In this document: positions 28,070 to 61,115 of the stretch, piece after piece
Layout of the letters: each line of letters begins with the position of its first letter
Position numbering within the stretch: position 1 is the first letter of the stretch
Assembly (NCBI GenBank): GCA_965214775.1
Contig: OZ243974.1
Span: forward strand, 1,344,001-1,408,000
Length of the DNA: 64,000 nt
Source: Nitrosopumilus sp.
GTDB lineage: Archaea; Thermoproteota; Nitrososphaeria; Nitrososphaerales; Nitrosopumilaceae
Direction of reading: 5' to 3'
The notes under the pieces: model-generated
What the model was told of the DNA's origin: nothing
Database searches by the model: none
The model's input: only the letters and a program-made list of their open reading frames with translations
Position numbers and translations under genes: made by a program

Positions 28070-28177
28070 CCTGCACGTTTTTCTGAATTTCTTCCCTTTT
28101 GCATGAACTGGGAGATGCACACAGTTACAGTGGGACTGCTTCCTGCACGTTTTTCTGAATTTCTTCCCTTTTGCATG
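28070..28177. repeat. Repeat-spacer-repeat unit (36/36/36 bp)
   Basis: CCTGCACGTTTTTCTGAATTTCTTCCCTTTTGCATG at 28070-28105 and 28142-28177 around a unique 36 bp. Confidence 0.93.
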
Positions 28178-28180
28178 CCT

Positions 28181-28300
28181 GGCAGCAGGTTAGCCCCTGC
28201 CTAGAGTTGGAGTTGCATCCCTTGCCGGCCAGGCATGAAAATCACAACTGCAAACAGATTCGTGTCTGATTGCTGCCTAGGCAGGGGCTAACCTGTTACC
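28181..28300. mobile_element. MITE family B (120 bp) nested in MITE-A
   Basis: TIR GGCAGCAGGTTAGCCCCTGCCTAG / CTAGGCAGGGGCTAACCTGTTACC; 6-bp TSD ATGCCT. Confidence 0.85.
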
Positions 28301-28668
28301 ATGCCTGATCCGCGTGGCATCCCAGCGGTTTTCAGGAATTCTGATGAATTAGGCGACAACTCTCATGTGTAAACAAACAAACATCATTAAATCGGTTAAA
28401 ATGCTTGCAAATGACCAGCTAAGCGAAATGTAAATGATCTTTGTTGTTTTGCCTTGCTATTGAGGCGGTGCCTCTTGTCCAATTTTTGTTTTTACTCGAT
28501 TTCTTGACACATTTCACCTAGCTGATGACAAGATGTCTGTACATAAAATTACTTGGCAAGTGGGCAGAAAATCAAGGGATTAATCTACGGTTTCTAATTT
28601 AGGGCAGTCGTCTTCCAACCCGGACTTTGCGGCGCTTTTGAGCCTGCTGAAAAAGGCAGGCCGGGGAT

Positions 28669-29652
28669 TCAAAGCAGCTCCCTCATCAGATCCACAAGGG
28701 ATTCGGCCGCCCTGTCGTTTGTGAGGTTCTCCAGCGTGTGCCTTTTGCCGCGCGCCGCTATCTGTTCCCACTTTGGATCATCCGGAGATGCCAGGTACTC
28801 CTCGAACCTTTTTTTGTAGTTTTTAGAGTTGATGAACACGGCGCTCTCCCCGTCCCGGAATCCCAGATATCCGCAGTCGCTTTCCTCTGAGACCTGCATG
28901 AATGTCAGGCATCCGGCAGCCGTGGACTCCCAGTATTTGACGGTGGGAAAGTACCTTGCTGCAGCTATGGCTGCCCTGTACCGTGACAGGTGTGCAATAA
29001 AGTCCGGATGTCCGCCGTACACGAGTGGCCCCACATAGTCAACATATGGCAGGCCTTTGCATTTTCTCCTCAGCTTGTACTGATGCCAGCCATAGATCAC
29101 CGTGGGTCTTAAAACATTATATAGCAAATATCTGATCTTCTTCTCCTCTAGCCTGCCGGTGAGCAGGATTTGATTCTTCGTCCTGTCCTTGAATGCAGGC
29201 GTCCTGGGCAAATCGGGCTCAACGCCGTATGTTATTGTCTTGTACTTGAAACTGCTTGGAAAGTACTTGTAAAAATAGCTCCGTGGCATAAAGTTGAAAC
29301 AGCAGTCGATATTCCATTTTTCGTGAAATCCAATCAGATCCCACTGTTTTATGCGGTGGGGATCATGCGTATGGGCGATCACCGGAATGTCAAGCTCTTT
29401 GACGTTTTCCAAGTGGGGCGTGCTCAGGTCGCTGTTGGTGCACAGTATGACGTCATATCTTCCCCTGAGCTTTGCCGCATCAAAGCTACGTTCTGCGGGA
29501 AAATAACCCATCTGCAGATGCCTGTTTCTTCTCAGGGCGTGAAAGAAAAAATAGTACCTGTTGTTGATGGAGTTGCTTTTGTTATAGTATCTCCACGACG
29601 GCTTGTAGATAAAGGCTGCCCTGATCTGCTGCTTTTCTTTGGATTCGCTCAT
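28669..29652 (-). CDS. Putative GT-B glycosyltransferase (Glyco_trans_1_2/CgeB-like)
   Basis: HDPH, TVKYWESTAAGCLTF, GFRDGESAVFI, QIAARG; start chosen at MSESK. Confidence 0.7.
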   Translation of the reverse strand: MSESKEKQQIRAAFIYKPSWRYYNKSNSINNRYYFFFHALRRNRHLQMGYFPAERSFDAAKLRGRYDVILCTNSDLSTPHLENVKELDIPVIAHTHDPHRIKQWDLIGFHEKWNIDCCFNFMPRSYFYKYFPSSFKYKTITYGVEPDLPRTPAFKDRTKNQILLTGRLEEKKIRYLLYNVLRPTVIYGWHQYKLRRKCKGLPYVDYVGPLVYGGHPDFIAHLSRYRAAIAAARYFPTVKYWESTAAGCLTFMQVSEESDCGYLGFRDGESAVFINSKNYKKRFEEYLASPDDPKWEQIAARGKRHTLENLTNDRAAESLVDLMRELL

Positions 29653-29956
29653 TTTGACCTGATGCTTTTGGGGATGCCTACATGCTTTTCTGCTGCTAGC
29701 CTGCCATCCAGCTGTTCTGTGTGAATTTTCACCCATACTTGCCCATCTTCCCATGCGCCTTTTCTGGATTGTTTATCTACAGCGATATCTCTTGTATGCA
29801 TCCCTTGTAACCTTTCTCCTTGGCTAGGAATCCCGCCTTTTTATCCTTTATAGTCTCATCATGGTAAGATTTTACCCCATCTCGAGGAATACGGCGTGGT
29901 AGGCACGATCATGAATGTCCCGGCCAGCCTTGTCGCCTGAGGGGCAAACTCGTACA

Positions 29957-30038
29957 CTAGACTTTATGCGTAATCGACCTGAATGATATGAATTTGTTCG
30001 TAACAATCCTAGTTTTGAACCGATTACGCAAAGTCTAG
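29957..30038. mobile_element. MITE family C (~80 bp)
   Basis: TIR CTAGACTTT(A)TGCGTAATCG / CGATTACGCAAAGTCTAG; other copies at 42600-42678 and, interrupted, ~43540-43705. Confidence 0.75.
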
Positions 30039-30300
30039 CGGTGTTGCCAAGCAGCAGGGAGCGGATCGCCAGAATTCTGGTATGAACCCCGGCATCCTTT
30101 TCCACACGCATGACGTCCGTGAGGATTTTCGCCTTGTCCGTGTTTGGATGGCCATGGCAGAAGATCTACAAACACTCACAAGGCGTGTAATCCGGTGAAA
30201 TTTTCAATGATCATCAGTGCAAGATCACGATTATGGACAGCCCCCGAGCATCAGCATAAATTAATAATGAGTTCTGGGTTCCGTACGGTACCTGAATTCT

Positions 30301-30561
30301 ATGAAGACTGCCGTTGTAATGGGAACGAGGCCGGAGATAATCAAACTCACTCCAGTCATAAACCAACTACGCAACAAAGACTGCACAATGATATTCTCCG
30401 GACAGCACTATGACCGCTTAATGGGCATGGATTTCATTGATCAACTCGGCCTACGTAGGCCCGACTATTCTTTGCAAATTTCAGCCCATCCAGCGGTTCA
30501 GATGGGTGAAATCATGATCAGGCTTTCTAAAATACTTGACGAGATAAAGCCTGACACCGTT
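30301..30561 (+). pseudogene. wecB: Truncated wecB paralog cut by IS630
   Basis: MKTAVVMGTRPEIIKL..SGQHYD nearly identical to the N-terminus of 35619-36692; ends at the IS630 terminus. Confidence 0.85.
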
Positions 30562-31165
30562 CTATACTGATACTCATTGAAAATTTCGCCTGACTACACG
30601 CTGCGCTCAAGATACCTGTAGATGTCAACCCTTATGGAACACGTCCTAAAGTATTCCGAGACGGCCCTTTTGAGGTGATCCACCGTCTCGTAAAAGGCCG
30701 ATGTTACCAGCCTGTACTTGGCATCCTTCCATACTGCCTCTATGGCGCTCAGCTCCGGCCTAGCTACCGGCAGGTACAGCAGGACAACGTCGGGATTCTT
30801 CTTCAGGTACCTGCGAACCTTCTTGGTCCTGTGCTGTGATGCGTTGTCCATCACCATCAGTACCTTTCCCCACTTTCTGTGCGCCTGTTTGAGATAGTCT
30901 ACAAAGTTTGCGCTGTTGAACTTGTCATATGTGCGCATCAGCCTGGTTCTGTCATCTGCAATCGTTCCGTATACCACGACGCGCTCCCTCCTGCCGGATC
31001 GCCCCACCACCTCGATCCTGTCTCCCACGGGAGACCAGAACTTTTTGCCGTCCCTTCCCGTACTGATGAATATCGACTCGTCCTTTACCGTCATCCCAAA
31101 TCCGCGCCTTTTTGCAAGCGCAATCTCGGCCTGTCAGAGTTTTCCATCTAGAACCATCCACCGAT
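30562..31165 (-). mobile_element. IS630-family element, 5'-truncated (DDE ORF 30594-31094)
   Basis: DESIF, VMDNASQH, LPVARPELSAIEAVW motifs. Confidence 0.85.
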
Positions 31166-31169
31166 AACT

Positions 31170-32057
31170 TTAGTTCCCTAGCTGATTCTTCTTCTTATTG
31201 TTCAGGTATGTCTTTAGGATTTTATCAGATGTCGACTTGGGCAGGAATCTGAACATTGAGTTTCTTAACATTCTACGAATTCGAGTAGATGCCGGCTTGG
31301 TTTTTTCATATTTTTTTAACGCATTTACATACTTGATTCTCTGATCATCTGGCAACCTGTCAAGTACTAGTGATTTAATGTGTGAAATTTGTTCTAGCGC
31401 ATCGTTATATCGCCGCTGGGTTAGCTGGGAGAAATGCATCCTATATTTTGCAATATTTTCATTAACAAGACGCATCCTGCAACCATGCAATAGGCAGCAT
31501 CTGAGCCAAAACTCATAATCTTCCTTGTACCCAACGGTTTCATCAAATAACCCACATTTTGCAAATACTGATTTGTGAATCATACTCGTTGTTCCATTGC
31601 CGTAAAAACGATCTAGCAAGAGCACGTTTCTCTCAAAATTTGACAAGTTATCATTATTGTCTTCAATATGATCGTCTATTTTATTTCCGTCTTCATCAAT
31701 TATCTCATAGTTTGCATAGAAAATACAGTTCGCAGCCTCGCTTGTTTGATTGACCGAGTCAGCCAGAGTTTGGATCGCATTGGACTTTAACAAGTCATCT
31801 GCACTGAGCCATTTGAACCAATCGCCAGTCATTTGTCTAAACCCGTAATTTAATGCAGAAGAAGTTCCGCCATTAGGCTTTTTAAAAACAGATATTTTAT
31901 CTGAAAAGCCTTGTAAAATTTCCTGCGAGTCATCTGTGGAACCATCATCTACGGCAATAACCTCGATATTCGAGTAAGACTGCTCGAGGGCAGACGTCAC
32001 ACATTGTTCGACATATTTTTCAGCATTATAAACAGGAATTACTACGGAGATCTTCAT
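31170..32057 (-). CDS. Glycosyltransferase family 2
   Basis: ISVVIPVYN, VDDGSTD, NGGTSSALN, WLSADD, EDYEFWLR. Confidence 0.93.
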   Translation of the reverse strand: MKISVVIPVYNAEKYVEQCVTSALEQSYSNIEVIAVDDGSTDDSQEILQGFSDKISVFKKPNGGTSSALNYGFRQMTGDWFKWLSADDLLKSNAIQTLADSVNQTSEAANCIFYANYEIIDEDGNKIDDHIEDNNDNLSNFERNVLLLDRFYGNGTTSMIHKSVFAKCGLFDETVGYKEDYEFWLRCCLLHGCRMRLVNENIAKYRMHFSQLTQRRYNDALEQISHIKSLVLDRLPDDQRIKYVNALKKYEKTKPASTRIRRMLRNSMFRFLPKSTSDKILKTYLNNKKKNQLGN

Positions 32058-32536
32058 AAACCGTCGAATCTTTTGGGTATGTCTAGGCTCTTTCCTTCCG
32101 ACAAAAGAGCTAATTTGGACTCCAGATCTTCAAGACTGTCCAATTCTTCCTTGTCCAATTCTTCATCAGACAAGGACTTTCTGCCTAATTTTAGTAATTC
32201 CAAATACAGTGGAGCTAAGCATTCAGTATGTATCCCCGGCTTTAATTTGTAATTGTAGGGATGAGATTCATGAGAGATACCAGCCTCGGATTTGTAGGCA
32301 CTAGAACGCTTCATGTGAACAAATCCAAGAATGACAAGTAATGGAATTCCAACCATCGAACTAGTTATGACATAGGCAGAAAAGCTCGGAAAGAGATCCA
32401 CAAAAGAGTCTGTATTTGCAATAAACAGATAGTATGTAATTGTAAACATGTTTGCTAGCGCTACGGCAAATCCGAAATATTGACTATACCCGGCACGAAA
32501 ATAAAACCATGCACGGAAAGGCAATTCATTGTTCAT
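32054..32536 (-). CDS. Two-TM membrane protein, paralog of 32533-33018
   Basis: FRAWFYFRAGYSQY...HPYNYKLKPG. Confidence 0.8.
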   Translation of the reverse strand: MNNELPFRAWFYFRAGYSQYFGFAVALANMFTITYYLFIANTDSFVDLFPSFSAYVITSSMVGIPLLVILGFVHMKRSSAYKSEAGISHESHPYNYKLKPGIHTECLAPLYLELLKLGRKSLSDEELDKEELDSLEDLESKLALLSEGKSLDIPKRFDGL

Positions 32537-33018
32537 GAGAACGCACCTTTGGGAGGGTTTCCTGCATGCCCGCCATTAATCAAATCCTCTAACTGTTTTT
32601 CAATACTTTTGATCTTGTTAGTCTCATCATCTGAGAGCTTTTCTCCTAGGATCTTTTTCCGATTCAATCTGAGAATCTCGACATAGGCAGGGCCAAATAC
32701 TTCTTTGTTATACCCTGGAAGTAACTTGTAGTTGTACGGAAATGCCTGCTCGTGAATTGCAGCTTCTGTAGAAAAAGTACCAATCCGCTTAAAATGAAGC
32801 CAGCCAACCACAGTAACAATGGGAATGCCAACGGCAATTACAAAGATGATGTAAGATTGGAATGTGGGGAAGATTTCTAAAACAAACGGTACTTTTTGGA
32901 TTGCTAGGAAATAACTGGTTGTCAATATGTTTATCACGCCTATGATCATGGCTAGATAGGTCGCATACCCAATGCGAAAATAAAAAAATCCTTTAAACGT
33001 ACTGCGTTTCTTGGTCAT
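32533..33018 (-). CDS. Two-TM membrane protein, paralog of 32054-32536
   Basis: FKGFFYFRIGYATY...FPYNYKLLPG; 4-bp gene overlaps suggest an operon with the GT2 gene. Confidence 0.8.
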   Translation of the reverse strand: MTKKRSTFKGFFYFRIGYATYLAMIIGVINILTTSYFLAIQKVPFVLEIFPTFQSYIIFVIAVGIPIVTVVGWLHFKRIGTFSTEAAIHEQAFPYNYKLLPGYNKEVFGPAYVEILRLNRKKILGEKLSDDETNKIKSIEKQLEDLINGGHAGNPPKGAFS

Positions 33019-33700
33019 ACTTTATCATTAATAGTTACAGTTTTTAGGTGTTGGCTGGGTAAAAATTCTTACTGTTGCATGAAAGATGTACAGTCGCTCT
33101 GGTGAAAACATAATTGGACTGTGCAATCGATCCGTATCTAGGATCATTACGAACAAGCTCATCTAAATCAGGCAAATTACGCATAGCCTGCTGCCATTAA
33201 AGACGGGAAAAAATAACGGGGGAGGGAGAGAGAGAGGCCGTCCAAATTTGTTCCTAGGTCGGTGGTCCATCCTGCCACAAATGTTGAAGAGACTGCAAAA
33301 ATCATTTCAAGCGGAATTCATACCATTTTTCCAATCCGGCTGACCCAGATGGATATGAACTGCATGTCGTGAACAGCCCTTCCAAAAGTTCCCCGTAAAA
33401 CGGCTCCCCATCTGACACGGCTCAAATTGTGGTGATGATTGAATGTCTTTGATCATCAAAAAGCTGATTCATACGTGATCCATGCACATACGCGCCCGAC
33501 TTTGTCGCCACGTGTACTTTTTGCAGATCCGCATGCCGCCGTCTGCACTGCCGTGAGGCGGACACTTGGAAAGACTGGTGCAATCGCTGTTACTGCTAAA
33601 CCAGTTCATCATCAAAAACGCAAAAAGAATTCCAAAACCCTGTTCGAGCAGCCTGGATTGGAATATGATCTCTCAAAAAATCAAAACAAACTGTCCGTGG

Positions 33701-35023
33701 CTATTTTCCCAACCCAATCGCTTTAAAGTCAATGCCTGAAAATTTTCCCGGATCAAAAATTCTTCGCGCATCTATGACCCTGGGTTTTTTCATGATCTTC
33801 CTTAGTTTGTCCTCGCTTAATCTTCTGTACGTGTCCCATTCCGTCAAAATTAGACAGCAGTCTGAATTCTTTAAACATGACGCAACAGATTTTGAATATT
33901 CGATCTTTCCACGAAAAATTTTTTCAAAATTTGCCATTGCCATGGGATCGTGAACTTTGATTTTTACTCCCCGTCTTAACAACAACTTGGCAATTTTTAC
34001 TGAAATGGCCTCTCTGATGTCATCTGTGTTTTTTTTAAACGCAAGCCCCAAGATTGAGACGGTTCTTCCCTTTTTGTAAACCCCCATCTCTTTCATTAAT
34101 TGAACAATCTTTTTTGGCCGGAGATCATTTACGTTTTTTACTGCTTCAAAAAACCTGTCTGATTCAGACTGCTTTTTTGAATAGTGAATCAATCCCTTCA
34201 AATCTTTGGGCAAACAACTACCGCCAAATCCCGGACCTGCTTTTAAAAATAACGGTCCTGCGCGTGGATCTTTACCAATCGCATACGCTATGGCATTCAC
34301 ATCCGAATTTGGAATATTTTGGCACATATTTGCAATTGAGTTGATAAAGCTGATTTTTGTTGCAAGAAATGCATTATTTGCATATTTGATTAGTTCGGCA
34401 CTTGAATAATCCGTATGAATGGTCTCGGGCATTTTTGAATAAAATTTTCTGTAATATTTTTCAAGCATCATGCCTTGGGATCTCTTATCTTCTCCTATTA
34501 TGATTAGATGGGGCTTTAACAAATCTTTTATGGCAAATCCTTCCTTCAAAAATTCTGGATTTACCACTAGAACTAGCTTGTTTTTCTCAATTAGTGTTTT
34601 GACTATCGGCCAAATGACTTTTTTTGTGGTTAATGGCGCCAGTGTACTTTTAACAACTAACATGTGTCTTTTTTTTTTGTCTTTTAAGGCTGAATTTATC
34701 TGAGAAACTGCCTTTTTTATAAACGAGAGATCTACTTCTCCAGACATTTTTGACGGGGTTCCGACTGTAAGAAATGTGATATCTGTCTCTCTTATTGATG
34801 AGATATCTGTTGTAAATTTTATTTTTTCATTTTTTATGGATTTTTTTAGAATATCTTTTAATTCTGGCTCATAAAAGTCTGGAATCCCTTTTTTCAACCT
34901 ATCTATCTTTTCATCGTTACTGTCTATTCCCACCGTGTAAAATCCTTTTTTAGAGTTAGCCGCCGCCAAGGATAGGCCGACAAACCCTAAACCTACTACG
35001 GAGATTTTATCCATACCTGCCAT
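33701..35023 (-). CDS. ugd: UDP-glucose/GDP-mannose 6-dehydrogenase
   Basis: GLGFVG, VGTP, NPEFLKEG, GPGFGGSCLPKD, GLAFKKNTDDIRE. Confidence 0.93.
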   Translation of the reverse strand: MAGMDKISVVGLGFVGLSLAAANSKKGFYTVGIDSNDEKIDRLKKGIPDFYEPELKDILKKSIKNEKIKFTTDISSIRETDITFLTVGTPSKMSGEVDLSFIKKAVSQINSALKDKKKRHMLVVKSTLAPLTTKKVIWPIVKTLIEKNKLVLVVNPEFLKEGFAIKDLLKPHLIIIGEDKRSQGMMLEKYYRKFYSKMPETIHTDYSSAELIKYANNAFLATKISFINSIANMCQNIPNSDVNAIAYAIGKDPRAGPLFLKAGPGFGGSCLPKDLKGLIHYSKKQSESDRFFEAVKNVNDLRPKKIVQLMKEMGVYKKGRTVSILGLAFKKNTDDIREAISVKIAKLLLRRGVKIKVHDPMAMANFEKIFRGKIEYSKSVASCLKNSDCCLILTEWDTYRRLSEDKLRKIMKKPRVIDARRIFDPGKFSGIDFKAIGLGK

Positions 35024-35199
35024 ATTGTATTTTGAACCATAACCTTGTACAATAAATAAATATCACCTGCGAAAAATTTACCCGTTTTTTGATCTTGTTG
35101 ATTTTTCAGGCATTTGCACAATTTTTACGATATCTGTTGCTTTCTGACCATCCATTACTGGGACTGTTTTTTCATAACGCATCTAAAAAATCGTGTACC

Positions 35200-35385
35200 G
35201 GGTCGGGTTCTGTAGTGCGCACAGTTGAAATCTGGACGTTTTTTATCAAAATAGGCACGATATGTCAAAATTACGGTCCGTTTTTTTGATGTGCGTACTG
35301 GAAGTTCAGGCACGGGTTTTGCCACTCTGGAGGACTCACAAGCAGATTCGTTCCTGAAATCAGGAGCAGCTTCTAGGATCCGAAC
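35200..35385. mobile_element. MITE-B-related element with nested MITE family E (~35215-35296)
   Basis: CACAGTTGAAATCTGGAC..ATCAAAATAGGCACGATATG repeated at ~38265 and ~39755; flanks GGGTTCTG..CTGGAAGTTCAGGC as at 60013-60123. Confidence 0.6.
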
Positions 35386-35618
35386 TGCTATGCCTGATGT
35401 GTACCGTCTGCGCCCAAATCCGGCAGGATTGCAGACAGATCAGCGAGGATCCGACTCTGTCTTCTGCTGGATCCAAACCCGCCTAACATTGGGTTTGTCG
35501 CACATTTTACTTGGCTGCTGAAAAGAAATGGAATGTGTGGGAGCAATCCTCTTCCGTCTTGGACAAAGCTTACATCCTCTCAATTGCCCAGATGATGGGC
35601 CCGCCTTGGTGATCTGGC

Positions 35619-36692: not shown

Positions 36693-36993
36693 GGAATTCA
36701 AGTACACAAACCCAGAACTTGTTATTAATTTATGCCAGTTCAGGCCGTTGTCCAGAACTGTGATTTTCAGGCGTGATTCTGAGATGATCCGTAACACGCC
36801 ATGCAGGTTGATCCAAAAAAGTGGAACTAGGCGACAATCCCGGTTGAATGACCGGCCATTTCTGGTGACAAAACCCGTGCCTGAACTTCCCAGAGCCCAA
36901 CCTGTTGCCAAACCATGCAGTCCTGATTTCTCTTTTTTTTGTAGTATGATATTGTGGGATCATTTGGAAAAGCATACGTGGTGTGATTTTAAC

Positions 36994-37842: not shown

Positions 37843-37889
37843 CTGTATCTAACTGAGTTGGGATCTCGGTTTTAAACAGTTTCATTCCC

Positions 37890-38029
37890 TAGTTTGTTGC
37901 ATAACTTCCTTTTTCGTCAAAAAACTCCTGATTTCGATCACAAATAGAGCCGAAATCAACTGTGATTTTTATCTGGATTTATCATTTAGGACGAATTCAA
38001 GTAAAAAAATCGAGTTATGCAACAAACTA
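37890..38029. mobile_element. MITE family D (140 bp)
   Basis: Perfect 17-bp TIR TAGTTTGTTGCATAACT; 7-bp TSD CATTCCC; second copy at ~55152-55288. Confidence 0.85.
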
Positions 38030-38732
38030 CATTCCCAACCCCTTTTCATTTTTCGAAGATGATCAATCCCAGTCAAGCCTTTGGCCTATCAAGTCAGGCG
38101 GCATTTCATTATGCAGGCTGAAGAATGATCTTCGAGAGCTGGTTTGAAATTGGCAAATTCGGATCATCTGGCAGGCCGGGCTCTGGAAGCGGTTTACGAT
38201 TTTGGGCACAAATTCTGTTTGATCGGCATTCATTGGTGGCAAAATTTACGCCTGAACTTCCTGTACACACAGTTGAAATCTGGACATTTTTTATCAAAAT
38301 AGACACGATATGATGGTCTCAAAATTACGGTCCATTCTTTTGATGTGTGCGATACAAGCTACTTGATAAATGTACAGAAAAATCCGGGCATTTGCTGTTT
38401 CTGATTTCGGATCATCCATGTTTCTCAAGCCCTGCTGCATCAATACCTGCAAATGCTCTGTCTTGACATGCGTGCTGGACAAACCTGCCAATTGCGGCGC
38501 GCAGCCACATGCCGCCTGGCCCCTGCCGTCTTTTGTAGCATGATAAAATACGCAATGCCTCTGGGTTTTGGCAGGACTGCAATCTCGGTTGCAACTTCAA
38601 GCCGTTCAACCCTGATGATCTGGCGTGATCTCCAACACGGCCAAGCCCTGATGATTCCTGGCCGGCCGATACCACTGGCTGTTTTCATACGTTAATCGCT
38701 TAGAATAATTACCAGACAAGTCAAATTTCGAC

Positions 38733-39656
38733 ATGCAAATTCTGATTACAGGCGGCTGTGGATTTGTTGGATCTCATCTGTCCAAATACCTGCTTGAGAA
38801 AGGACACAAGGTTGTTGCTTATGACAATTTTTCAAACTCTAAAAAAAATGAAAATTCCTTGCAACCACGTGTCATTAAGGGAGACATACTTGATTTGTCA
38901 CATATCTCAAAGTGCTTGGAAAAAATTGACTTGGTAATACATTTGGCCGCACAAATCAGCGTAATTGACTCGAACTCACATCCAGAAAAAACCCTGAAAA
39001 TCAACGTTCAGGGCACAGAAAACGTCTTAAACGCATGTGTTAAACAACAGGTAAAAAACTTCATTGGTATCTCTAGTGCGGCTGTGTTTGGAAATCAGAA
39101 TAACATTCTTTCAGAAAACTCCCCGACCCTTCCGATCTCCGTCTATGGCAAAAGCAAGCTTTTGATGGAAAAAATGATCGTTGATTTTTCAAAAAATCAC
39201 AATATCAACTCTGTAATTCTGAGATTTTTTAACCTATATGGTAAAAACCAATCGCCGCAATATGCCGGAGTGATAGCAAAATTTTTAGACAAAATTAAAA
39301 ATTGCCAGCCCGTTGTAATATGTGGGGACGGAAGCCAGACAAGGGACTTTGTTCACGTTGATGATGCAATAAGCTGTATTGACCTTGCAATACAAAAAAT
39401 GGACGGCAAGTCCGGAGAAATTTACAATGTTGGAAGCGGCCAAAGTACCAAAATTCTAGATCTGGCAAAACTACTCATCTGCCTTTCTAAAAAAAACATT
39501 CCGATAAGCTTTCTTGACCCAATAGAAAATGATATTATTCACAGCCGGACTTCGATAGAACTGGCATCCGATGATCTGGGATATGTCCCAAAGAGAACCC
39601 TGCAGGATGGACTGTCCGAACTTTTAGAACCTTCTGCTAAAAACTCACATATCTGA
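38733..39656 (+). CDS. UDP-glucose 4-epimerase-like SDR
   Basis: TGGCGFVGSH, HLAAQISV, YGKSK, LRFFNLYG, GDGSQTRDFVHV. Confidence 0.92.
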   Translation: MQILITGGCGFVGSHLSKYLLEKGHKVVAYDNFSNSKKNENSLQPRVIKGDILDLSHISKCLEKIDLVIHLAAQISVIDSNSHPEKTLKINVQGTENVLNACVKQQVKNFIGISSAAVFGNQNNILSENSPTLPISVYGKSKLLMEKMIVDFSKNHNINSVILRFFNLYGKNQSPQYAGVIAKFLDKIKNCQPVVICGDGSQTRDFVHVDDAISCIDLAIQKMDGKSGEIYNVGSGQSTKILDLAKLLICLSKKNIPISFLDPIENDIIHSRTSIELASDDLGYVPKRTLQDGLSELLEPSAKNSHI

Positions 39657-40871
39657 CCTGATGACAGAACTGACAGATTTGACATGCAACGGATCAATTT
39701 TTCTATCAGACTTTATGGATTGAAGCGTTGATCAGTCTGCAAAAGTGCCATAATGCGCACAGTTGAAATCTGAAAGTTTTTTTATCGAAATAGGCACGGC
39801 ATGTCAAAATCATGGTTCATTTTTTTGATGTGCACTGCATAAAGCAGTCAAGTTTGAAGCAATTCTGATTGGGCCGCCTGCCGCAGATCCACATCATGCC
39901 GCCGCCTGCATTGCAATGAACGTGTACTGTGGTGACGATTGAAAGTCTTTGATCATCAAAAAGCGCATTTCTGCGTAATTCACATCCATATATGCTCAAG
40001 AATTTTTGATCGTCGCTATACATCTGCAGAATGGGAGTCCATGCCTAGGCAGCAATCAGGAACGAACATGCATGCACTTGTGATTTCCATGCCTGTCCGG
40101 CAAGGGACGTGGATCCGACTCTAGGCAGCGGTCATCTATTACAAAAGATACTGCTGCCATCTGCTTGACATATGACGTACGGCGGTACGGGCCGCGCCCT
40201 CTTTCTGACTCGTCGGCGGGGCACATTGCCGTGCTGCATGGCCGCACACGTCTTTTTGACATGAACCGGTTTTTGCGTGCATTATGACAGGATCCACAGC
40301 GGTATCTTGATCTGATCAATGCGTTTACGTCTGGAAAATCCTGCGGAATTTTTGATCACGGCCGATTACACATAAAGTCTAATGGAGAGATAGTTGATCA
40401 TAACTCTGCTAGACGGTTATATGCCGTACCATGTCTGTCAAATAACAACCTTATCATTTTCCGTTTTTCGTCCCAGTAAGTTTGGATGGATCTATCCTGC
40501 CCATCGTGTCTTCCATTTTATTGGGTTGGTCCATGATTGCATTATGAAGACGCACGTATTCCTCCTTAAAAGAAAGGCCCACTTTACAAGTGTCTATCTC
40601 ACTCCCATGTTCTCTGACGGATGAATCCTGCTCTAATTGTACATCTGATGCCATACTAGTATGATAAACAGAATTCTGCTAATAGCGGTTACTGGTGATG
40701 TCAGCAGTCTTCCCAAAAATACGTGATTCATGACTGTGCAGATGACGGCGGGCGAATCTGCAGGCATTATGACTTGATTTGTTTCAAATCCGGGGCCGTT
40801 TTACGGGGAACTTTTGGGAAATGCCACCTTCAAGGATTCTTTTTAATATCCCTTTGACAACCCGTTTTTTG

Positions 40872-41915
40872 TTGACGGATTCCTCGCTCCGAACAGTCGA
40901 ATGGAGAAACAACAAGGTGGTAATGATTGATCAAACTAGACTGCCAAACGAACTTGTTTTTGTAGAATTTACTGACTATCTTCAAGTTGCAGACGCAATC
41001 AAAACCCTGGTTGTAAGAGGGGCCCCCGCAATTGGCGTTTCTGGGGCGTTTGGCATGGGCCTTGCAGCCTTACAGAGCCAGGCAGCTACAAAAGAAGAGC
41101 TTGTTTCTGACTTGGAAAAAGCAAAAAACATCCTATTTTCAACCAGGCCGACTGCAGTAAACCTTGGTTGGGGTCTAGACAAAGTCATGAATGCCGCAAA
41201 AACCGGAAGCAGCGTTGATGAAATAAGGAGTCTGGTTGTCTCCACTGCAAGAAACATGGCAGATGAGGACATTGAAATTAACAAGACAATGGGAAAAAAC
41301 GGTTCTGTATTGTTTGATGATAACGACACTGTAATGACTCATTGCAATGCCGGCGCCCTTGCAACTGTTGCGTACGGCACAGCCCTTGGAGTAATCCGGG
41401 CTGCCAAGGAGAGTGGAAAAAATGTAAAAGTGATTGCCACTGAAACCAGGCCTGTTCAGCAGGGTTCTAGACTAACGGCCTTTGAATTACAGCATGACGG
41501 GTTTGATGTCAGCCTGATTCCAGATACCGCAGTAGGGTACTCTATGGCAAATGGACTGGTTGACAAGGTCGTAGTTGGCGCAGACAGAATTGTAAAAACC
41601 GGACACGTATTTAACAAAATTGGAACATACCAAGTTGCAACCATGGCAAGACGACACGGGATTCCATTCTACGTTGCGGCCCCCCTGTCGACAATAGATC
41701 TGCAAAGCAGGGCAGAAGACGTTGTCATTGAAATGAGAAAGGGCACCGAAGTCACTGGAACAGGCGAGAAAAAAACAGCCCCAGACGACATCAGTGTCAT
41801 TAATCCCGCATTTGACATGACTCCTCCCGAACTGATTGCCGGAATTATTACCGAAAAAGGAGTTGTCCGGCCCCCATATAAGGAATCTATAGCAAAATTA
41901 TTTGAAGCTAATTAA
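40872..41915 (+). CDS. mtnA: S-methyl-5-thioribose-1-phosphate isomerase
   Basis: DQTRLP, VRGAPAIG, RPTAVNL, THCNAGALAT, ETRP..QGSRLT, NKIGTY. Confidence 0.93.
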   Translation: MTDSSLRTVEWRNNKVVMIDQTRLPNELVFVEFTDYLQVADAIKTLVVRGAPAIGVSGAFGMGLAALQSQAATKEELVSDLEKAKNILFSTRPTAVNLGWGLDKVMNAAKTGSSVDEIRSLVVSTARNMADEDIEINKTMGKNGSVLFDDNDTVMTHCNAGALATVAYGTALGVIRAAKESGKNVKVIATETRPVQQGSRLTAFELQHDGFDVSLIPDTAVGYSMANGLVDKVVVGADRIVKTGHVFNKIGTYQVATMARRHGIPFYVAAPLSTIDLQSRAEDVVIEMRKGTEVTGTGEKKTAPDDISVINPAFDMTPPELIAGIITEKGVVRPPYKESIAKLFEAN

Positions 41916-41954
41916 TAGAAAGTTTTTATTGTTTTTCAAATTGCTTCAAACAAT

Positions 41955-42593
41955 ATGAGCACAGTCACCTCTCAGGCAGTCGAAGACTCCCTAAAACAGT
42001 GCATGGATCCCGAGGTTCCGCTAAACATCGTTGAGATGGGACTTGTCTATGGAATCGATGTGGCAGATAATAACGACGTTAACATCAAAATGACCATGAC
42101 CACCCAGGGATGCCCCTTGCATGAAACTCTGGTCTCTGATGCCACACGATTTGTCAAGAAAGTTCCCGGGGTAAACAATGTCAACGTTGAAATCGTTTGG
42201 GATCCCCCCTGGTCAATGGACAAAATGTCCGAAGAGGCCAAGACAAAAATCAAGAACATGGGCGCCGGCATGGATATTCCTGCTCCGATCAATTATGAGA
42301 CTGCCTTGCCTCAGGGCGCCGGCAAGCTAGTCCGGCAGGAGGACGGCTCACTGGTCTTGGCAAACGAGCACGAACAAGGATTTATGGTAAACCAGGCAAT
42401 CGTTGATTTCTGGAAGTCATGTAACGGGCAGAGAAAGGTAACAGATCTTGTGGAAATCTTTGCGCAGCAAACCGGACTCCAACGAAAGCAAGTTGAAAAG
42501 GAAGTGATGCAGCTATTGCAGCAGCTTAGAGACGGCGGATTAATTGTCATTGCCAGCAAGCCGGGTGCCCCGAATGTTGAATTTAAAAAATAA
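41955..42593 (+). CDS. DUF59/MIP18 Fe-S assembly domain fused to a PqqD-like domain
   Basis: DPEVPLNIVEMGLVY, TTQGCP, VWDPPW; C-terminal VNQAIVDFWKSCNGQRKVTDL. Confidence 0.85.
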   Translation: MSTVTSQAVEDSLKQCMDPEVPLNIVEMGLVYGIDVADNNDVNIKMTMTTQGCPLHETLVSDATRFVKKVPGVNNVNVEIVWDPPWSMDKMSEEAKTKIKNMGAGMDIPAPINYETALPQGAGKLVRQEDGSLVLANEHEQGFMVNQAIVDFWKSCNGQRKVTDLVEIFAQQTGLQRKQVEKEVMQLLQQLRDGGLIVIASKPGAPNVEFKK

Positions 42594-42897
42594 AAACAAT
42601 AGACATTATGCGTAATCGACCTGAACGAGATGAATTTGTTTGCAACAATCCTGGCTTTGAACCGATTACGCAGTCTAGTGCCCGTAGATGTAACTGATCC
42701 TCAAATGCTTCAAGAACTTTTGCCAGTCAGCACGGTTCATTGCGCGGGTCGGTATGGCCTTATCGGAACCGCAGGCGGAGGCAGGTCATATCTGCAGTTT
42801 TGATTTTATCTTGGTTATGTCGTTTTCTATCCTCTCAAACCGAGAGTCAAGCATCTCGTGGATGTTGGATGAAAGACTTTGGATCTCCGTTATGGTC

Positions 42898-42971
42898 TGA
42901 TCCTGCTTGTCCAGCATCTGATCCTGCTTGTCCAGCATCTGATCCTGCTTGTCCAGCATCTGATCCTGCTT
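42898..42971. repeat. 21-bp tandem repeat x3.5 encoding a KQDQMLD heptad
   Basis: TGATCCTGCTTGTCCAGCATC repeated without spacers. Confidence 0.92.
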
Positions 42972-43013
42972 CGAATCTATGGATTTCAGATACATGGAGC
43001 CGGTGCTGAATCC

Positions 43014-43126
43014 CTTGGTGGTCTCGTCGACAAGGATGCGCATCATTTTGAGGCGTTATGCCAGGCAAGGAAGAGCTTACACCTAAACTTGGTGGTCTCG
43101 TCGACAAGGATGCGCATCGTTTTGAG
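43014..43126. repeat. Repeat-spacer-repeat unit (39/35/39 bp)
   Basis: CTTGGTGGTCTCGTCGACAAGGATGCGCATC(A/G)TTTTGAG at 43014-43052 and 43088-43126. Confidence 0.92.
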
Positions 43127-44329
43127 AAGCATCAGGTTCTCTGGCGACATGTTCTTTGGAGCCTCCTCGTCCAGTCCGTTATGTTCTATGCGAAAAGTCG
43201 GGTACAGGCCTGTGCCCTCTGAATACTCGGATCGGATGTTTTTGATCAGGACTGGCCTTGGAAGGTTTCTTATCGATTCAAGCATTGCGTCGATGTCCTC
43301 CCGCCTTCTCTCGCATACGATCTCGACTGTGCCGTCCTCTAGGTTCTTGACGTATCCGTGAATCTCGCGCCGTATCGCCTCTGCCTGTACGAGGCAGCGG
43401 AGCCCGACTTCCTAGACTGTCCTTTCAAGCAGGAACGATGCCCTCTGCATACGGACAGTTGCCCTCGTGTGTATATTACAATTATGGCGTACTCATTCTT
43501 GATTATAGTGACGGGTTATTCCATGCCGGGTGGCGTGTGGACTTTGTGCGTAATCTACATAGATGAGATGAATTGTACAATTCATTCCTACGTAAAATCA
43601 GATGTGAACAGGAAGTTTGGATGAATGTTTTACGCCTGGAAAGTTGGGGGCCTGACGTGTATGACGAATTTGTTTGCAACAATCCTGGTTTTGAACTGAT
43701 TACAGTACCTGTCTGCTTATAGTGACGATTAAAAGTCTTTGATCATCAAAAAGCGCCTTCCTGGGTAGTTTATGCCCACACGTGCTCAAACTTTTAATCG
43801 CTACTATGACCACCTATCTTTTCGTTCCTTCCTAACTGACTTTGTTTTCTCTTTGAAATCCATTCCTTTTTCAAAAAATTCCGATATCAAAATTTTCATA
43901 GCAGATCGTGCTGTTTGTAAAGTGACTTGCGATCTTGTACGCAAACTCTGTTTGAACGGCCATTGCTGATGGCAGGATTCATGCCTGAACTTCCAGATCC
44001 CAAGACGCTGCGAATTTTTCCCTGATTTTGAGATCCTTTGTTATGGACTTGGCTGATGTTCCTGGCAGCCGGCATTTCCCACAAACTTTTCCCTGACTTT
44101 GATGATGTCTTTTTGCTCAAGTGCATCGGCAATCAGCTCTGCCTAGGGTTGGCCCGACACAAAATTTTACTCCAGAAAGAGAGAACTCTCTTATGCTTTG
44201 GTTCATGCTGCCCTTTGATCCCCTCAACCCCTTCAAGTTCGTTATCGGAGAGTCCTGCTCTTGGAGCATCATTCCCGTCTGTCACCATGCCGTCGAGTTT
44301 TATTGATTAATGGCCTGCCGGGACTATTC

Positions 44330-44977
44330 CTAAAACACATAATCTGAAGATGCGCCGTCAATGTTTATCGTAACTCCGGAAAGATACTTTATCTGATTCT
44401 CTACGATGGATTTGACAAAATTTCCTATCTCCTCTGGCTCTCCCAATCTTTTCATTGGCAATGTCTTCTTGAATTCCTCTACGTCGTCTATCAACTCCCT
44501 TGTCCTGTCCGTGTTGATTGGGCCCGGTGCTATGTTGATGCAACTGACTTGATTCTGGGCATACTCCTTGCTTAGCACCTTGAAAACCTCTGAAAACGCC
44601 GCTCTGTACGCTGATGAGATTATCAGCTTTGGATTTGGCTCCTTGATGACGCTTGAGCTTATCAGGAAGACATATCCCCCGTCATTGATCTTGATGTTCT
44701 GCAATATTGTGCAAAATCCCAAGAACAACTGATTGTGATATTTCATCCAGTCTTTCTCGGAAATTTCTGAAAATTGTTTTGGAACCGGGCCTCCGGTATT
44801 TAACACAAGAATGTCCGTCTGACAGTGCTCTCTTACAAAGTTTCTGACACTCTCCAAGTCCGAAGTATCGATCTCGTTTTTTGATGTTGCAACCACATCC
44901 ACCTGAATTGAGCCGAGTGCTTTGGATATGGCCTTTCCAATTCCCCTTGAACCCCCCAAAACAATGGCCTTTGGCAT
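44330..44977 (-). CDS. Short-chain dehydrogenase/reductase
   Basis: GGSRGIG, LNTGGP, NIAPGPINTDR, PMKRLGEPEE. Confidence 0.92.
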   Translation of the reverse strand: MPKAIVLGGSRGIGKAISKALGSIQVDVVATSKNEIDTSDLESVRNFVREHCQTDILVLNTGGPVPKQFSEISEKDWMKYHNQLFLGFCTILQNIKINDGGYVFLISSSVIKEPNPKLIISSAYRAAFSEVFKVLSKEYAQNQVSCINIAPGPINTDRTRELIDDVEEFKKTLPMKRLGEPEEIGNFVKSIVENQIKYLSGVTINIDGASSDYVF

Positions 44978-45001
44978 ACAACATCAATAATTTCTGGATG
45001 A

Positions 45002-45274
45002 TTAAATTTCTTTAATCTCGGTAATCGTTCCCTGGACGGAATCCATCTTTACAATTGCCCTTTTTTCTTCCTCTTCCTCTCTATCTTCCTTCTCCTCCTC
45101 CTCCCATCCCAATGCCACATACCAGTCTCCTGCATCATCGTCGTATTTCGTCTCCAAAACCTTTGCTTCTTGGGGCCTGATGCTGTATTTTTTGGCTATT
45201 GCTGATACGGCTAGTGCTATTGCGTCCTCTTCCTTCTCTAGCCTTCTCTTCATCAACCCAATTCCGGGACTCAT
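45002..45274 (-). CDS. Small hypothetical protein with an acidic low-complexity stretch
   Basis: MSPGIGLMKRRLEKEEDAIALAV..WYVALGW..MDSVQGTITEIKEI; start placed at MSPG. Confidence 0.7.
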   Translation of the reverse strand: MSPGIGLMKRRLEKEEDAIALAVSAIAKKYSIRPQEAKVLETKYDDDAGDWYVALGWEEEEKEDREEEEEKRAIVKMDSVQGTITEIKEI

Positions 45275-45328
45275 GGTTTTCTCCTGCCCATCATGCAACA
45301 TATTAACTAATAAGATTGGCCTTGGGGC

Positions 45329-45436
45329 AAGTGGAATCATCATCATCGATCCATTTTTCCAGAATAGGGCGTTGACGGCGATGGTCTTCCCACTGCCGTG
45401 TAAGTGGAATCATCATCATCGATCCATTTTTCCAGA
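45329..45436. repeat. Repeat-spacer-repeat unit (35/38/35 bp)
   Basis: AAGTGGAATCATCATCATCGATCCATTTTTCCAGA at 45329-45363 and 45402-45436. Confidence 0.93.
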
Positions 45437-45490
45437 CTGGCATCACCTTTGGCAACATTTCAAATATCCCTTTTCCAGAGTGCAATCAAA

Positions 45491-49185: not shown

Positions 49186-49238
49186 GATGACATACCTCTG
49201 ACAATGTTATTATTATCTCTATTTGAAATCTGGGCAAG

Positions 49239-60869: not shown

Positions 60870-61115
60870 CCACCGTTTGCGCAGACTGGCAAGATCGTCG
60901 CCGCATCTGTTTGCGTTCCTAGAGCATGATAACGTGTATCCCACAAACAACGGCGCAGAGTGTGCCCTCCATTACACCGTCGTCTTCCGCAAGATAAGCT
61001 GACAGATCAAGGAAGTGGAACTCTGGATGAGAAGCTAGTCGTGGTTTATGACGTGCATACTAACGTGGAGTACAAGGGGCAAATCCATGGCAGACGATGT
61101 CATGAAGCTAGTTTA
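60870..61115 (+). pseudogene. IS66-type transposase C-terminal remnant
   Basis: LFAFLEHDNVYPTNNGAECALHYTVVFRKIS* matches the PTNNxAERxLR motif. Confidence 0.7.

What the first reader, a model, noticed from the sequence alone, without database searches (positions are those of the whole stretch)
28070..45436. Recurrent CRISPR-spacer-like insertions at non-CRISPR sites: 35-39 bp duplication around a 35-38 bp unique insert
Seen: three unrelated loci (28070-28177, 43014-43126, 45329-45436) share one geometry, a direct repeat of 36, 39 and 35 bp enclosing a unique 36, 35 and 38 bp insert (periods 72, 74, 73). The three repeats have no evident sequence in common, and at two sites the context shows the repeat is duplicated local host sequence. 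Established: Cas1-Cas2 integrates a spacer-sized duplex and duplicates a repeat-length target by ruler-like staggered attack, and off-target 'neo-array' integration has been shown experimentally in E. coli. The IS and MITE TSDs in this window are only 6-15 bp. Inference: this genome records natural, fixed, promiscuous spacer-type integration (at least 3 events in 64 kb) by a Cas1-like integrase with relaxed leader/repeat specificity. It would act as an insertional mutagen and a dispersed record of captured DNA. No cas gene is in the window, so the enzyme is unidentified.
Basis: partly seen in the sequence, partly recalled or inferred. Interest (0 to 1): 0.92.

Follow-up and report, generated by a model that had tools for sequence, protein, structure and literature searches.

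The report
Scattered CRISPR-style insertions outside arrays
An ammonia-oxidising archaeon carries about fifty small insertions, each a spacer-sized piece of DNA flanked by a repeat-sized copy of the local sequence, which look like its CRISPR memory-writing enzyme pasting DNA into ordinary genes instead of its arrays.

Summary
The three window loci are exactly as described. They belong to a genome-wide class. Among single-copy isolated direct repeats, 47 have periods of 70-76 nt, against 40 spread over the other 264 periods scanned.

In 19 of 52 candidates, paralogous copies show the empty site, so the repeat is duplicated target. 22 of 52 inserts are copied from elsewhere in the same genome, against 0 of 78 true array spacers.

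The genome has one type I-B cas operon, with cas1-cas2-cas4, and two arrays: 37-nt and 36-nt repeats, spacers 33-39. A related species has about 15 such units in 1.2 Mb, one of them inside its only cas1.

Best reading: natural off-target Cas1-Cas2 spacer integration (0.68).

Caveats:
- Duplication plus insert is held at about 73 nt while each part varies widely.
- No PAM or strong target motif was found.
- A Cas1-less relative still has two units.

The scan noted the same pattern before on other DNA. One check there found no link to cas1.

The parts
28070..28105 (.). Site 1, first copy of the 36-nt duplicated target (intergenic; a MITE copy starts 9 nt after the unit).
   Evidence: 36/36 identical to 28142-28177, spacing 72.
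28106..28141 (.). Site 1 insert, 36 nt. It is copied from the genome's own DNA.
   Evidence: 36/36 identical to G000:C1:2405741-2405776 (minus strand). That position lies inside a 604-codon open frame with periplasmic-binding-protein domains, about 14 kb from CRISPR array B.
28142..28177 (.). Site 1, second copy of the duplicated target.
43014..43052 (.). Site 2, first copy of the 39-nt duplicated target. It lies inside a minus-strand gene of a coiled-coil paralog family.
   Evidence: 38/39 identical to 43088-43126; with one copy plus the insert removed in silico, a 183-codon frame aligns over aa 2-183 with paralogs at C1:834145, 152880, 2519124 and 380587. In the real locus the match splits into aa 1-108 and 96-183, so 13 residues are duplicated.
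43053..43087 (.). Site 2 insert, 35 nt, source unknown. The 74-nt addition shifts the frame of the host gene.
   Evidence: no match elsewhere in the genome; no exact match in viral or metagenome contigs.
43088..43126 (.). Site 2, second copy of the duplicated target.
   Evidence: In one search, a contig of run X5 starts at 43089, one base after the shared 31-mer begins. This is what a k=31 graph gives if the sequence really occurs twice.
45329..45363 (.). Site 3, first copy of the 35-nt duplicated target.
   Evidence: 35/35, spacing 73. In one search, contigs of runs X1 and X5 (two studies) both end at 45358. That is the last 31-mer still anchored in unique left flank.
45364..45401 (.). Site 3 insert, 38 nt, source unknown.
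   Evidence: no match in the genome; no exact match in viral or metagenome contigs.
45402..45436 (.). Site 3, second copy of the duplicated target. It overlaps the start of a 226-codon plus-strand ORF (45404-46084) with no family match.
   Evidence: the site falls at codon 13 of the 234-codon frame obtained after in-silico removal.
49039..49076 (-). Source sequence (protospacer) for a unit elsewhere in the genome.
   Evidence: 38/38 identical to the insert of the unit at C1:345230-345339. It lies in an F420-dependent NADP oxidoreductase-like gene, window 48517-49206 minus strand.

Best explanation
The three loci are single repeat-insert-repeat units left by CRISPR-type spacer integration at ordinary chromosomal sites.

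Proposed mechanism (inferred): a Cas1-Cas2 integrase loaded with a spacer-sized DNA fragment attacks the two strands of a non-CRISPR target about 36 nt apart. Gap filling then duplicates the 36 nt on both sides of the fragment.

The likely agent is the resident type I-B Cas1-Cas2-Cas4 module. A second adaptation module, now lost, whose orphan 36-nt-repeat array remains, is also possible.

The fragments come partly from the cell's own chromosome and repeat elements. They persist at these sites because the units are not real arrays and so provoke no self-targeting. The process acts as an insertional mutagen. It occasionally re-uses a site, giving a three-repeat neo-array, and in a sister species it has hit the integrase gene itself.

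Shown here: the geometry, the target duplication, the self origin of many inserts, the presence of an intact-looking cas1, and recurrence in relatives. Inferred: that Cas1-Cas2 is the agent.
For: 1. Genome-wide peak. 47 single-copy isolated repeats (L>=26) have periods 70-76, against 40 over the other 264 periods. The shuffled genome gives 0 runs.

2. Sizes match the genome's own arrays. The perfect units have duplication modes of 36 nt (12) and 37 nt (8), and insert modes of 36-38 nt. Array A has 12 repeats of 36 nt with spacers 36-39. Array B has 68 repeats of 37 nt with spacers mostly 33-37.

3. True target duplication. For 19 of 52 candidates, the sequence with one repeat plus the insert removed aligns across the site to other copies in the genome. 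Many alignments are gap-free at 95-99% identity. Window site 2 shows the same at protein level.

4. Inserts are unrelated to one another and to the array spacers. 22 of 52 match elsewhere in the same genome, 14 of them near full length. Sources include housekeeping genes such as a purF-like gene. By contrast, 0 of 78 real spacers match the genome beyond 17 nt. This is the contrast expected if only real arrays are purged of self-spacers.

5. The genome has a single cas1 and a single cas2. They sit in a cas8-like/cas7/cas5/cas3/cas6b/cas1/cas2/cas4 operon beside array B. Acidic and histidine positions E173, H238, D250 and E253 are invariant in 3 orthologs. Their catalytic role is recalled, not tested.

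6. One locus has 3 repeats and 2 inserts, with periods 72 and 73.

7. Relatives. G066 has 20 isolated loci at periods 69-75 in 1.2 Mb, about 15 of them independent. One is a 38+34 unit inside its only cas1. Removing it in silico gives a continuous 326-residue match to the G000 Cas1. G014 has a 39+34 unit about 310 nt upstream of cas1 and a 36+36 unit in 0.4 Mb.

8. The duplicated segment starts with G or ends with C in 35 of 49 units, where 41% is expected (p=3e-5). Array B's repeat has G at both 5' ends.

9. 6 of 13 uniquely traced sources lie within 200 kb of cas1 (binomial p=0.0056, window chosen after seeing the data).

10. Contigs of runs from two studies break exactly at the repeat edges of sites 2 and 3.
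Against: 1. The Cas1-less relative G002 still has 2 perfect units (36+37 and 35+38, both period 73) in 1.2 Mb. It has no PF01867 match and no cas gene by tblastn in the 1.2 Mb sampled. G014, which has several Cas1 genes, has only 1 clean unit in 0.4 Mb. Across the 4 genomes sampled, the link to Cas1 is therefore weak.

2. The sum rule. The period has SD 1.45, while the duplication ranges 26-46 nt and the insert 26-49 nt (SD about 4 each, r=-0.93). Most short duplications do not continue as mismatched repeats. Three long ones with traced sources resolve to inserts of 32-35 nt and duplications of 40-44 nt, with 3-5 nt of junction identity. Independent repeat and spacer rulers do not predict this.

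3. The 14 traced sources have no consistent flanking motif, although Cas4 is present.

4. An orientation-fitting search over 36 core sites found no target motif (all positions below 0.4 bit).

5. Insert lengths (36-38) fit orphan array A better than array B, which sits next to cas1 and has a spacer mode of 35.

6. An earlier scan note on another phylum reports that such units were as frequent in genomes without cas1 as with it. I did not check that note.
Confidence: 0.68

Rival explanations
1. A Cas-independent, undescribed process adds a fixed length of about 73 nt at a break or nick. The addition consists of an ectopic copy of variable length plus a compensating re-copy of local sequence. 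The match with the CRISPR period would then be coincidence.
For: - The total is far better conserved than either part, also in G066, which has 29+43 and 28+44 units.
- Some long-duplication units have 3-5 nt of junction identity with the source.
- Two perfect units occur in a relative without Cas1 or cas genes in the sample.
- No PAM was found.
- Earlier scan notes describe the same 'compensating duplication' in another phylum, and one check there found no link to cas1 (unchecked by me).
Against: - No known repair or replication process gives a fixed 73-nt patch.
- Of the 14 traced units, I read 0-1 nt of junction identity at most and 3-5 nt at three. Template switching would need more than 0-1 nt.
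- The modal partition, 36-37 plus 36-38, equals the genome's own repeat and spacer sizes.
- G014 has a second array type with period 65-67 and an isolated 33+34 unit with period 67. This hints that the period follows the arrays.
- Unit density is about 10 times higher in the two genomes carrying this cas1 clade (G000 and G066) than in Cas1-less G002.
Confidence: 0.2
2. The agent was not the resident I-B module but a second adaptation module, now lost from this genome, that served the orphan 36-nt-repeat array A. This is a sub-variant of the best explanation.
For: - Array A has no cas genes beside it.
- Its spacers are 36-39 nt, which fits the inserts (mode 36-38) better than array B does (mode 35).
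- In G014, a homologous 36-nt repeat ending in the same 14 nt stands beside a 577-codon Cas1-containing frame and a cas2.
Against: - 42 of 48 units have perfectly identical repeats, so the events are recent. Yet no trace of a second cas1 was found.
- G066, which has only the I-B-type adaptation genes in the 1.2 Mb sampled, has many units.
Confidence: 0.2
3. The units are assembly or sequencing artefacts.
For: I had no raw reads, only k=31 contigs. The best-holding runs may come from the sample or culture that gave the assembly.
Against: - The same geometry occurs in the assemblies of four species and in one further related record, L182.
- In G066 one unit was later copied along with its host element, into 3 tandem copies and into inverted pairs.
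- Contigs from two studies break exactly where a true duplication would force a k=31 graph to branch.
Confidence: 0.02
4. The units are functional one-spacer mini-arrays or regulatory cr-like RNAs rather than accidents.
For: Mini-arrays with one or two spacers exist in viruses and in cas loci (search listing only).
Against: - Every unit has a different repeat, made of local coding or IS sequence.
- No other copy of either array's repeat exists in the genome at up to 7 mismatches.
- Several units frameshift genes.
Confidence: 0.03

Closest known systems
Non-canonical (off-target) Cas1-Cas2 spacer integration creating 'neo-CRISPR' loci in E. coli (Nivala, Shipman and Church 2018, Nat Microbiol 3:310)
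   Same: A spacer-sized insert is flanked by a repeat-length duplication of non-CRISPR target, and a site can be re-used to grow a small array.
   Different: That work used E. coli over-producing type I-E Cas1-Cas2. Wild cases were described by a citing preprint as 'circumstantial evidence' in two other species (10.1101/148544, passages read).

Here about 50 fixed units sit in a wild archaeal genome with a type I-B system, and relatives carry more. Many inserts are self-derived, I found no target motif, and the sum of the two parts is fixed.

I could not read the 2018 paper, which is not held. I know it only through citing passages.
In vitro off-target integration by Pyrococcus furiosus Cas1-Cas2 (PMC6698737, passages read)
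   Same: An archaeal Cas1-Cas2 alone makes full-site integrations, and also does so at non-CRISPR sites.
   Different: Those off-target sites share sequence features with the repeat, and the work is in vitro on plasmids. In this genome only a G preference at one end of the duplicated segment was detectable.
Ectopic spacer acquisition in Streptococcus arrays (PMC7999890, title and abstract in search listing only)
   Same: A spacer is integrated away from the leader-proximal repeat.
   Different: Those events still occur inside the CRISPR array, at a cognate repeat. The units here lie in unrelated chromosomal sequence.
Casposons (Cas1-family casposase transposons)
   Same: A Cas1-family integrase makes a staggered cut and a target duplication.
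   Different: Casposons are kilobase-sized elements with terminal inverted repeats and duplications of about 14-15 bp (recalled, not from a call). The inserts here are 26-49 nt, all different, and the only cas1 in the genome sits in a cas operon.
Self-spacer uptake during naive adaptation in Pyrococcus furiosus (PMC5737086, abstract in search listing only)
   Same: The adaptation machinery samples the host chromosome as well as foreign DNA.
   Different: That uptake was observed in arrays under laboratory conditions. Here the self-derived pieces survive because they lie outside the arrays.

Membership tests
Off-target Cas1-Cas2 spacer integration (neo-CRISPR units) | The direct repeat is a duplication of the local target, so an empty site with one copy exists. 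| tested here: met
   19 of 52 candidates have paralogous copies that align across a single copy of the repeat with both flanks. Window site 2 shows the same at protein level. Empty alleles of the same locus in other strains could not be seen.
Off-target Cas1-Cas2 spacer integration (neo-CRISPR units) | The duplication length equals the CRISPR repeat length of the same genome. | tested here: met
   Among the 42 perfect units the modes are 36 nt (12) and 37 nt (8), against array repeats of 36 and 37 nt. However, 11 of the 42 perfect units lie outside 34-39 nt.
Off-target Cas1-Cas2 spacer integration (neo-CRISPR units) | The insert length equals the spacer length of the same genome, and inserts are unrelated in sequence. 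| tested here: met
   Insert modes are 36 (10), 38 (7) and 37 (6), against spacers of 36-39 in array A and 33-37 in array B. No insert matches another insert.
Off-target Cas1-Cas2 spacer integration (neo-CRISPR units) | A Cas1-Cas2 integrase is encoded by the genome. | tested here: met
   The genome has one cas1 (232 bits, no stops) and one cas2, next to cas4 and array B.
Off-target Cas1-Cas2 spacer integration (neo-CRISPR units) | The units depend on Cas1-Cas2 and are absent where the integrase is absent. | tested here: inconclusive
   Counts: G000 about 50 units in 2.83 Mb. G066 about 15 in 1.2 Mb. G014 1 in 0.4 Mb plus 1 beside cas1. Cas1-less G002 2 in 1.2 Mb. Only four genomes were sampled. 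A second Cas1-less control could not be fetched.
Off-target Cas1-Cas2 spacer integration (neo-CRISPR units) | Sources of inserts carry the system's PAM. | tested here: inconclusive
   The 14 traced sources show no single flanking motif. Four have TT just upstream. The system's PAM is itself unknown, because no real spacer could be traced.
Off-target Cas1-Cas2 spacer integration (neo-CRISPR units) | The enzyme catalyses full-site integration into CRISPR-free DNA. | not testable with these tools
   This needs a biochemical or in vivo assay.
Genuine CRISPR array or mini-array | Units share a conserved repeat recognised by the Cas6 and Cas1 machinery. | tested here: not met
   Every unit has a different repeat. 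The two array repeats occur nowhere else in the genome at up to 7 mismatches.
Transposon or MITE with target-site duplication | A conserved element sequence with defined ends recurs at each insertion. | tested here: not met
   Inserts share no similarity with each other. Those with genomic matches are copies of internal parts of genes or of different repeat elements.
Tandem duplication by slippage | The inserted material is a copy of the adjacent sequence. | tested here: not met
   Apart from the insert's own position, BLAST found no copy of any insert within 200 nt of its unit. Traced sources lie tens of kilobases to more than 2 Mb away.

The most novel reading that the evidence does not exclude
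The units are made by an undescribed process that always adds about 73 nt. It takes a variable-length copy of DNA from elsewhere and adds a compensating re-copy of the target.

Two versions remain open. In one, the process is independent of Cas1. In the other, it reveals an unrecognised 'closed-loop' ruler of Cas1-Cas2, in which spacer plus target segment must add up to a fixed contour.

In both versions it mutates genomes in distant phyla, can destroy the cas genes themselves, and can seed new arrays.
Probability: 0.25. Interest if true: 0.92.

Novelty: new variant of a known kind. Interest (0 to 1): 0.8.

Why it matters
Off-target spacer integration has been shown in E. coli over-making Cas1-Cas2 and in vitro. 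For wild genomes, the passages I could read mention only circumstantial cases. My four literature searches found no report of a wild genome with dozens of fixed events.

If the reading holds, four things follow.
- CRISPR adaptation has a measurable mutational cost in nature, through frameshifted genes and 24-codon in-frame insertions.
- The units give an unselected record of what the adaptation machinery samples. Here that is largely the cell's own chromosome, with an excess near the cas locus.
- It offers a route for CRISPR-Cas to disable itself, as with the cas1 hit in a sister species.
- It shows nascent arrays at an early stage.

The fixed sum of duplication and insert is a quantitative rule. 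It can be tested directly with purified proteins and prespacers of different lengths.

Tried and rejected
**Target motif.** An orientation-fitting PWM search on 36 core sites gave less than 0.4 bit at every position. Only a G preference at one end emerged later.

**PAM.** The 14 traced sources have no consistent flank.

**Real spacers as a PAM reference.** None of the 78 spacers matches the genome, so the system's PAM remains unknown.

**Origin of window inserts 2 and 3.** Neither has an exact match in viral contigs or metagenome contigs.

**Empty sites in relatives at DNA level.** The site 1 region has no match in 30 relatives. The relatives are too diverged for this test.

**Empty alleles from reads.** Only k=31 contigs were available. 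They cannot bridge a repeat of 35-39 nt or tell an empty allele from a filled one.

**RNA.** No RNA holder was listed.

**Leaders of arrays A and B.** They show no meaningful similarity.

**Association with repeated DNA.** 11 of 50 events lie in repeats, against a repeated fraction of 25% of the genome. This is not significant.

**Association with the 114-nt MITE.** 2 of 49 units lie within 300 nt of a copy, where 0.28 is expected (P=0.036). I treat this as weak.

**Which gene the G014 unit hits.** The G000 Cas6b gives no tblastn match there, and the flanking ORFs have no Pfam hit.

**G066 inserts.** No self source was found in the 1.2 Mb sampled. The only matches are copies of the same events and multi-copy elements.

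**Cas1-adjacent loci of 21 related records (337 kb).** Only 2 clean isolated units were found, one of which is the G014 unit. There is therefore no strong hotspot next to cas loci in general.

**Candidates dropped:**
- 6 copies of one IS-borne 34+41 repeat.
- A tRNA-like 20+54 locus, a multi-copy-element 30+43 locus, and the window's 61649-61748 repeat element.

**Literature.** The Nivala 2018 paper is not held. Supplements were not consulted.

Full report
**Observation.** The repeat finder on the whole window lists five direct-repeat families within 300 nt. Three of them are 28070-28105/28142-28177 (36 nt, identical, spacing 72), 43014-43052/43088-43126 (39 nt, one mismatch, spacing 74) and 45329-45363/45402-45436 (35 nt, identical, spacing 73). 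The window is G000:C1:1344001-1408000 of a single-contig genome of 2,833,656 bp with 47.1% G+C.

**Genome-wide scan.** I scanned the genome for same-offset matches at every period from 30 to 300, using a seed of 14, ungapped X-drop extension and a minimum length of 20.
- 1423 hits resulted, of which 134 are isolated. Isolated means no other hit within 100 nt and an insert of at least 10 nt.
- Periods 71-75 hold 51 of the isolated hits (5, 12, 15, 12, 7). Almost every other period holds 0-3. The exceptions, periods 82 and 156, are largely copies of multi-copy elements, as are 6 of the 7 hits at period 75.
- After collapsing repeat families, 113 single-copy isolated repeats remain. Of the 87 with L>=26, 47 lie in periods 70-76 and 40 in the other 264 periods.
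- A shuffled genome gives no run of 18 nt or more at all.

**Working list.** The list has 52 candidates. It starts from 57 hits at periods 68-78, drops 6 copies of one IS-borne repeat, and adds window site 2, which the isolation filter had dropped because of a neighbouring tandem repeat. Three more candidates were later set aside as different things: a tRNA-like locus, a multi-copy element, and the window's 61649-61748 element. Among the 48 single-copy units at periods 69-77, 42 have perfectly identical repeats.

**The repeat is duplicated target.** For 19 of 52 candidates, removing one repeat and the insert in silico gives a sequence that aligns through the site to other copies in the genome. 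These hosts are IS elements and gene families. Many alignments have no gap and 95-99% identity, for example to 10, 39, 8 and 20 other copies.
- Window site 2 lies in a member of a coiled-coil gene family. After removal, a 183-codon frame aligns over residues 2-183 with four paralogs. In the real locus the match is split into residues 1-108 and 96-183, so 13 residues are present twice and the 74-nt addition shifts the frame.
- Site 1 is intergenic.
- Site 3 sits at codon 13 of an unassigned ORF.
- Genome-wide, some units lie in frame inside long open frames and others split them.

**The inserts.** They share no similarity with each other or with array spacers. 22 of 52 match elsewhere in the same genome at E<=1e-4, and 14 of these match over nearly their whole length.
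- The site 1 insert is 36/36 identical to C1:2405741-2405776.
- Conversely, window 49039-49076 is the 38/38 source of a unit at C1:345230.
- Sources include ordinary genes: a purF-like amidotransferase, binding proteins, a plastocyanin-like protein and an F420-dependent oxidoreductase. Others are multi-copy elements.
- None of the 78 spacers of the two true arrays matches the genome beyond 17 nt.
- Six of 13 uniquely traced sources lie within 200 kb of cas1 (p=0.0056, window chosen after seeing the data), and three more lie within 33 kb of each other.
- The units themselves cluster, with 10 in 150 kb from C1:1266241 where 2.6 are expected (Poisson 4e-4, uncorrected). This cluster includes the window's sites 1-3.

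**The candidate enzyme.** The organism is an ammonia-oxidising archaeon. It has archaeal ribosomal proteins and AmoA, and no McrA. Record titles of related loci name Nitrosopumilus and related genera.
- The genome has one cas1 and one cas2. They sit in a minus-strand operon of a 591-codon cas8-like frame, cas7, cas5, cas3, cas6b, cas1, cas2 and cas4, which makes it type I-B.
- Beside the operon lies array B, with 68 repeats of 37 nt. Spacer lengths are 35 (25), 34 (16), 36 (12), 37 (5), 33 (3) and six others.
- Array A has 12 repeats of 36 nt and spacers of 36-39 nt, with no cas gene beside it.
- In relative G014, a homologous 36-nt repeat stands next to a 577-codon Cas1-containing frame and a cas2. 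Array A is therefore probably the orphan of a lost second system.
- The modal unit, 36-37 plus 36-38, matches these arrays.
- One locus, C1:1266838-1267014, has three repeats and two inserts.

**Relatives.**
- G066 (37.8% G+C) has a single cas1 that carries a perfect 38+34 unit. The unit is in frame but brings two stop codons. Removing it in silico restores a continuous 326-residue match to the G000 Cas1. In the 1.2 Mb of G066 that I sampled, I found cas4, cas2, cas1 and a partial cas6b only.
- That sample holds 20 isolated loci at periods 69-75, about 15 of them independent, against 0-1 at other periods apart from period 150, which has 4.
- G014 has a 39+34 unit about 310 nt upstream of cas1. 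In 0.4 Mb it also has one 36+36 unit, plus 33+34, 33+29 and 38+45 units. It has a second array type with period 65-67.
- G002 has no Cas1 and no cas genes in the sample. It has 2 perfect units, both with period 73, in 1.2 Mb.
- In 21 Cas1-adjacent loci of related records (337 kb), all arrays of this clade have repeats of 36-37 nt and periods of 70-76. Two clean isolated units occur there.

**Reads.** Seven runs hold at least half of the sampled words of window 42000-46000. Laid as k=31 contigs, runs from two studies give pieces with no differences that stop at 45358 (X1 and X5) and start at 43089 (X5). These are the positions where a real duplication forces the graph to branch. The runs may come from the same source as the assembly, and contigs cannot show empty alleles.

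**Interpretation.** The most economical mechanism is Cas1-Cas2 full-site integration at non-CRISPR targets. The staggered attack and gap filling are established for this enzyme family. That it acted here is inference.

Evidence in favour:
- The sizes match the genome's own arrays.
- The target duplication is real.
- The inserts are diverse and partly self-derived.
- Real spacers, by contrast, show no self matches.
- One locus is a growing neo-array.
- The pattern recurs in relatives that carry this cas1 clade.
- The duplicated segment starts with G or ends with C in 35 of 49 units, where 41% is expected (p=3e-5).

Evidence against, or unexplained:
- No PAM was found and no wider target motif.
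- A Cas1-less relative has two units.
- There is a sum rule. The period has SD 1.45, while the duplication ranges 26-46 nt and the insert 26-49 nt, with r=-0.93.

Boundary ambiguity explains only part of the sum rule. Most short duplications do not continue as mismatched repeats. Three long ones with known sources resolve to inserts of 32-35 nt and duplications of 40-44 nt. A loop of fixed contour, formed by spacer plus target around the integrase, would explain this. That idea is speculation.

**Earlier scan notes.** Other first readers flagged the same units across this genome. Follow-ups on other phyla described the same geometry and the same 'compensating duplication'. One check there found no link between unit counts and cas1. 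I did not verify those notes, but they are the reason I keep a Cas-independent process as a serious rival.

**Literature.** Off-target integration is in print for E. coli over-producing Cas1-Cas2, with circumstantial wild cases, and for P. furiosus in vitro (passages read). The 2018 paper itself is not held. Four searches found no report of a wild genome with dozens of such events. Subscription journals and supplements were not searched.

**Verdict.** The kind of event is known from the laboratory. What appears new is its natural scale, its recurrence across a lineage, the hit on cas1 itself, and the fixed-sum rule.

Noticed in passing
window 28186-28300: A MITE-like element of about 114 nt sits 9 nt after site 1. 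It has 27 copies of at least 90 nt in the genome. 2 of 49 units lie within 300 nt of a copy, where 0.28 is expected (P=0.036).
   Followed up: partly
window 42896-42971: Three and a half copies of a 21-nt tandem repeat (minus strand, a KQDQMLD-like heptad) lie in the coiled-coil gene hit by site 2. Paralogs with the same repeat occur at C1:152403, 2366365 and 2519484.
   Followed up: partly
window 60268-61756: A dispersed 45-nt repeat family containing TCTAATTAGCTACTTG has 5 copies in 1.5 kb. The 29+42 pair at 61649-61748 mimics the unit geometry but belongs to this family.
   Followed up: partly
G000:C1:1977219-1978062: Orphan CRISPR array A has 12 repeats of 36 nt, with a degenerate last repeat and no cas genes nearby. 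The upstream genes include a prepilin-peptidase-like protein. In G014 its repeat family stands next to a 577-codon Cas1-containing frame.
   Followed up: partly
L017 1974-2083 (G066:C1:1888134-1888243): The only cas1 of a sister species carries a 38+34 unit with two stop codons. Its neighbouring array is short and degenerate, and no interference genes were found in the 1.2 Mb sampled.
   Followed up: yes
G000 whole genome: 25% of the genome is repeated DNA (at least 150 nt at 80% identity or more). At 2.83 Mb it is the largest genome among the 72 genus members listed, which are 0.7-2.4 Mb. This suggests IS/MITE expansion under relaxed selection.
   Followed up: partly
G066:C1:1406775-1414080 and 1419699/1424895, 1765720/1848731: Identical units occur in three tandem copies 3.6 kb apart and in two inverted pairs. 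The insertions therefore preceded later duplication of their host elements.
   Followed up: no
L193 10001-10612: In one related complete chromosome the Cas1 match stops at residue 213 of 336. No unit was found there, and the cause of the truncation was not examined.
   Followed up: no
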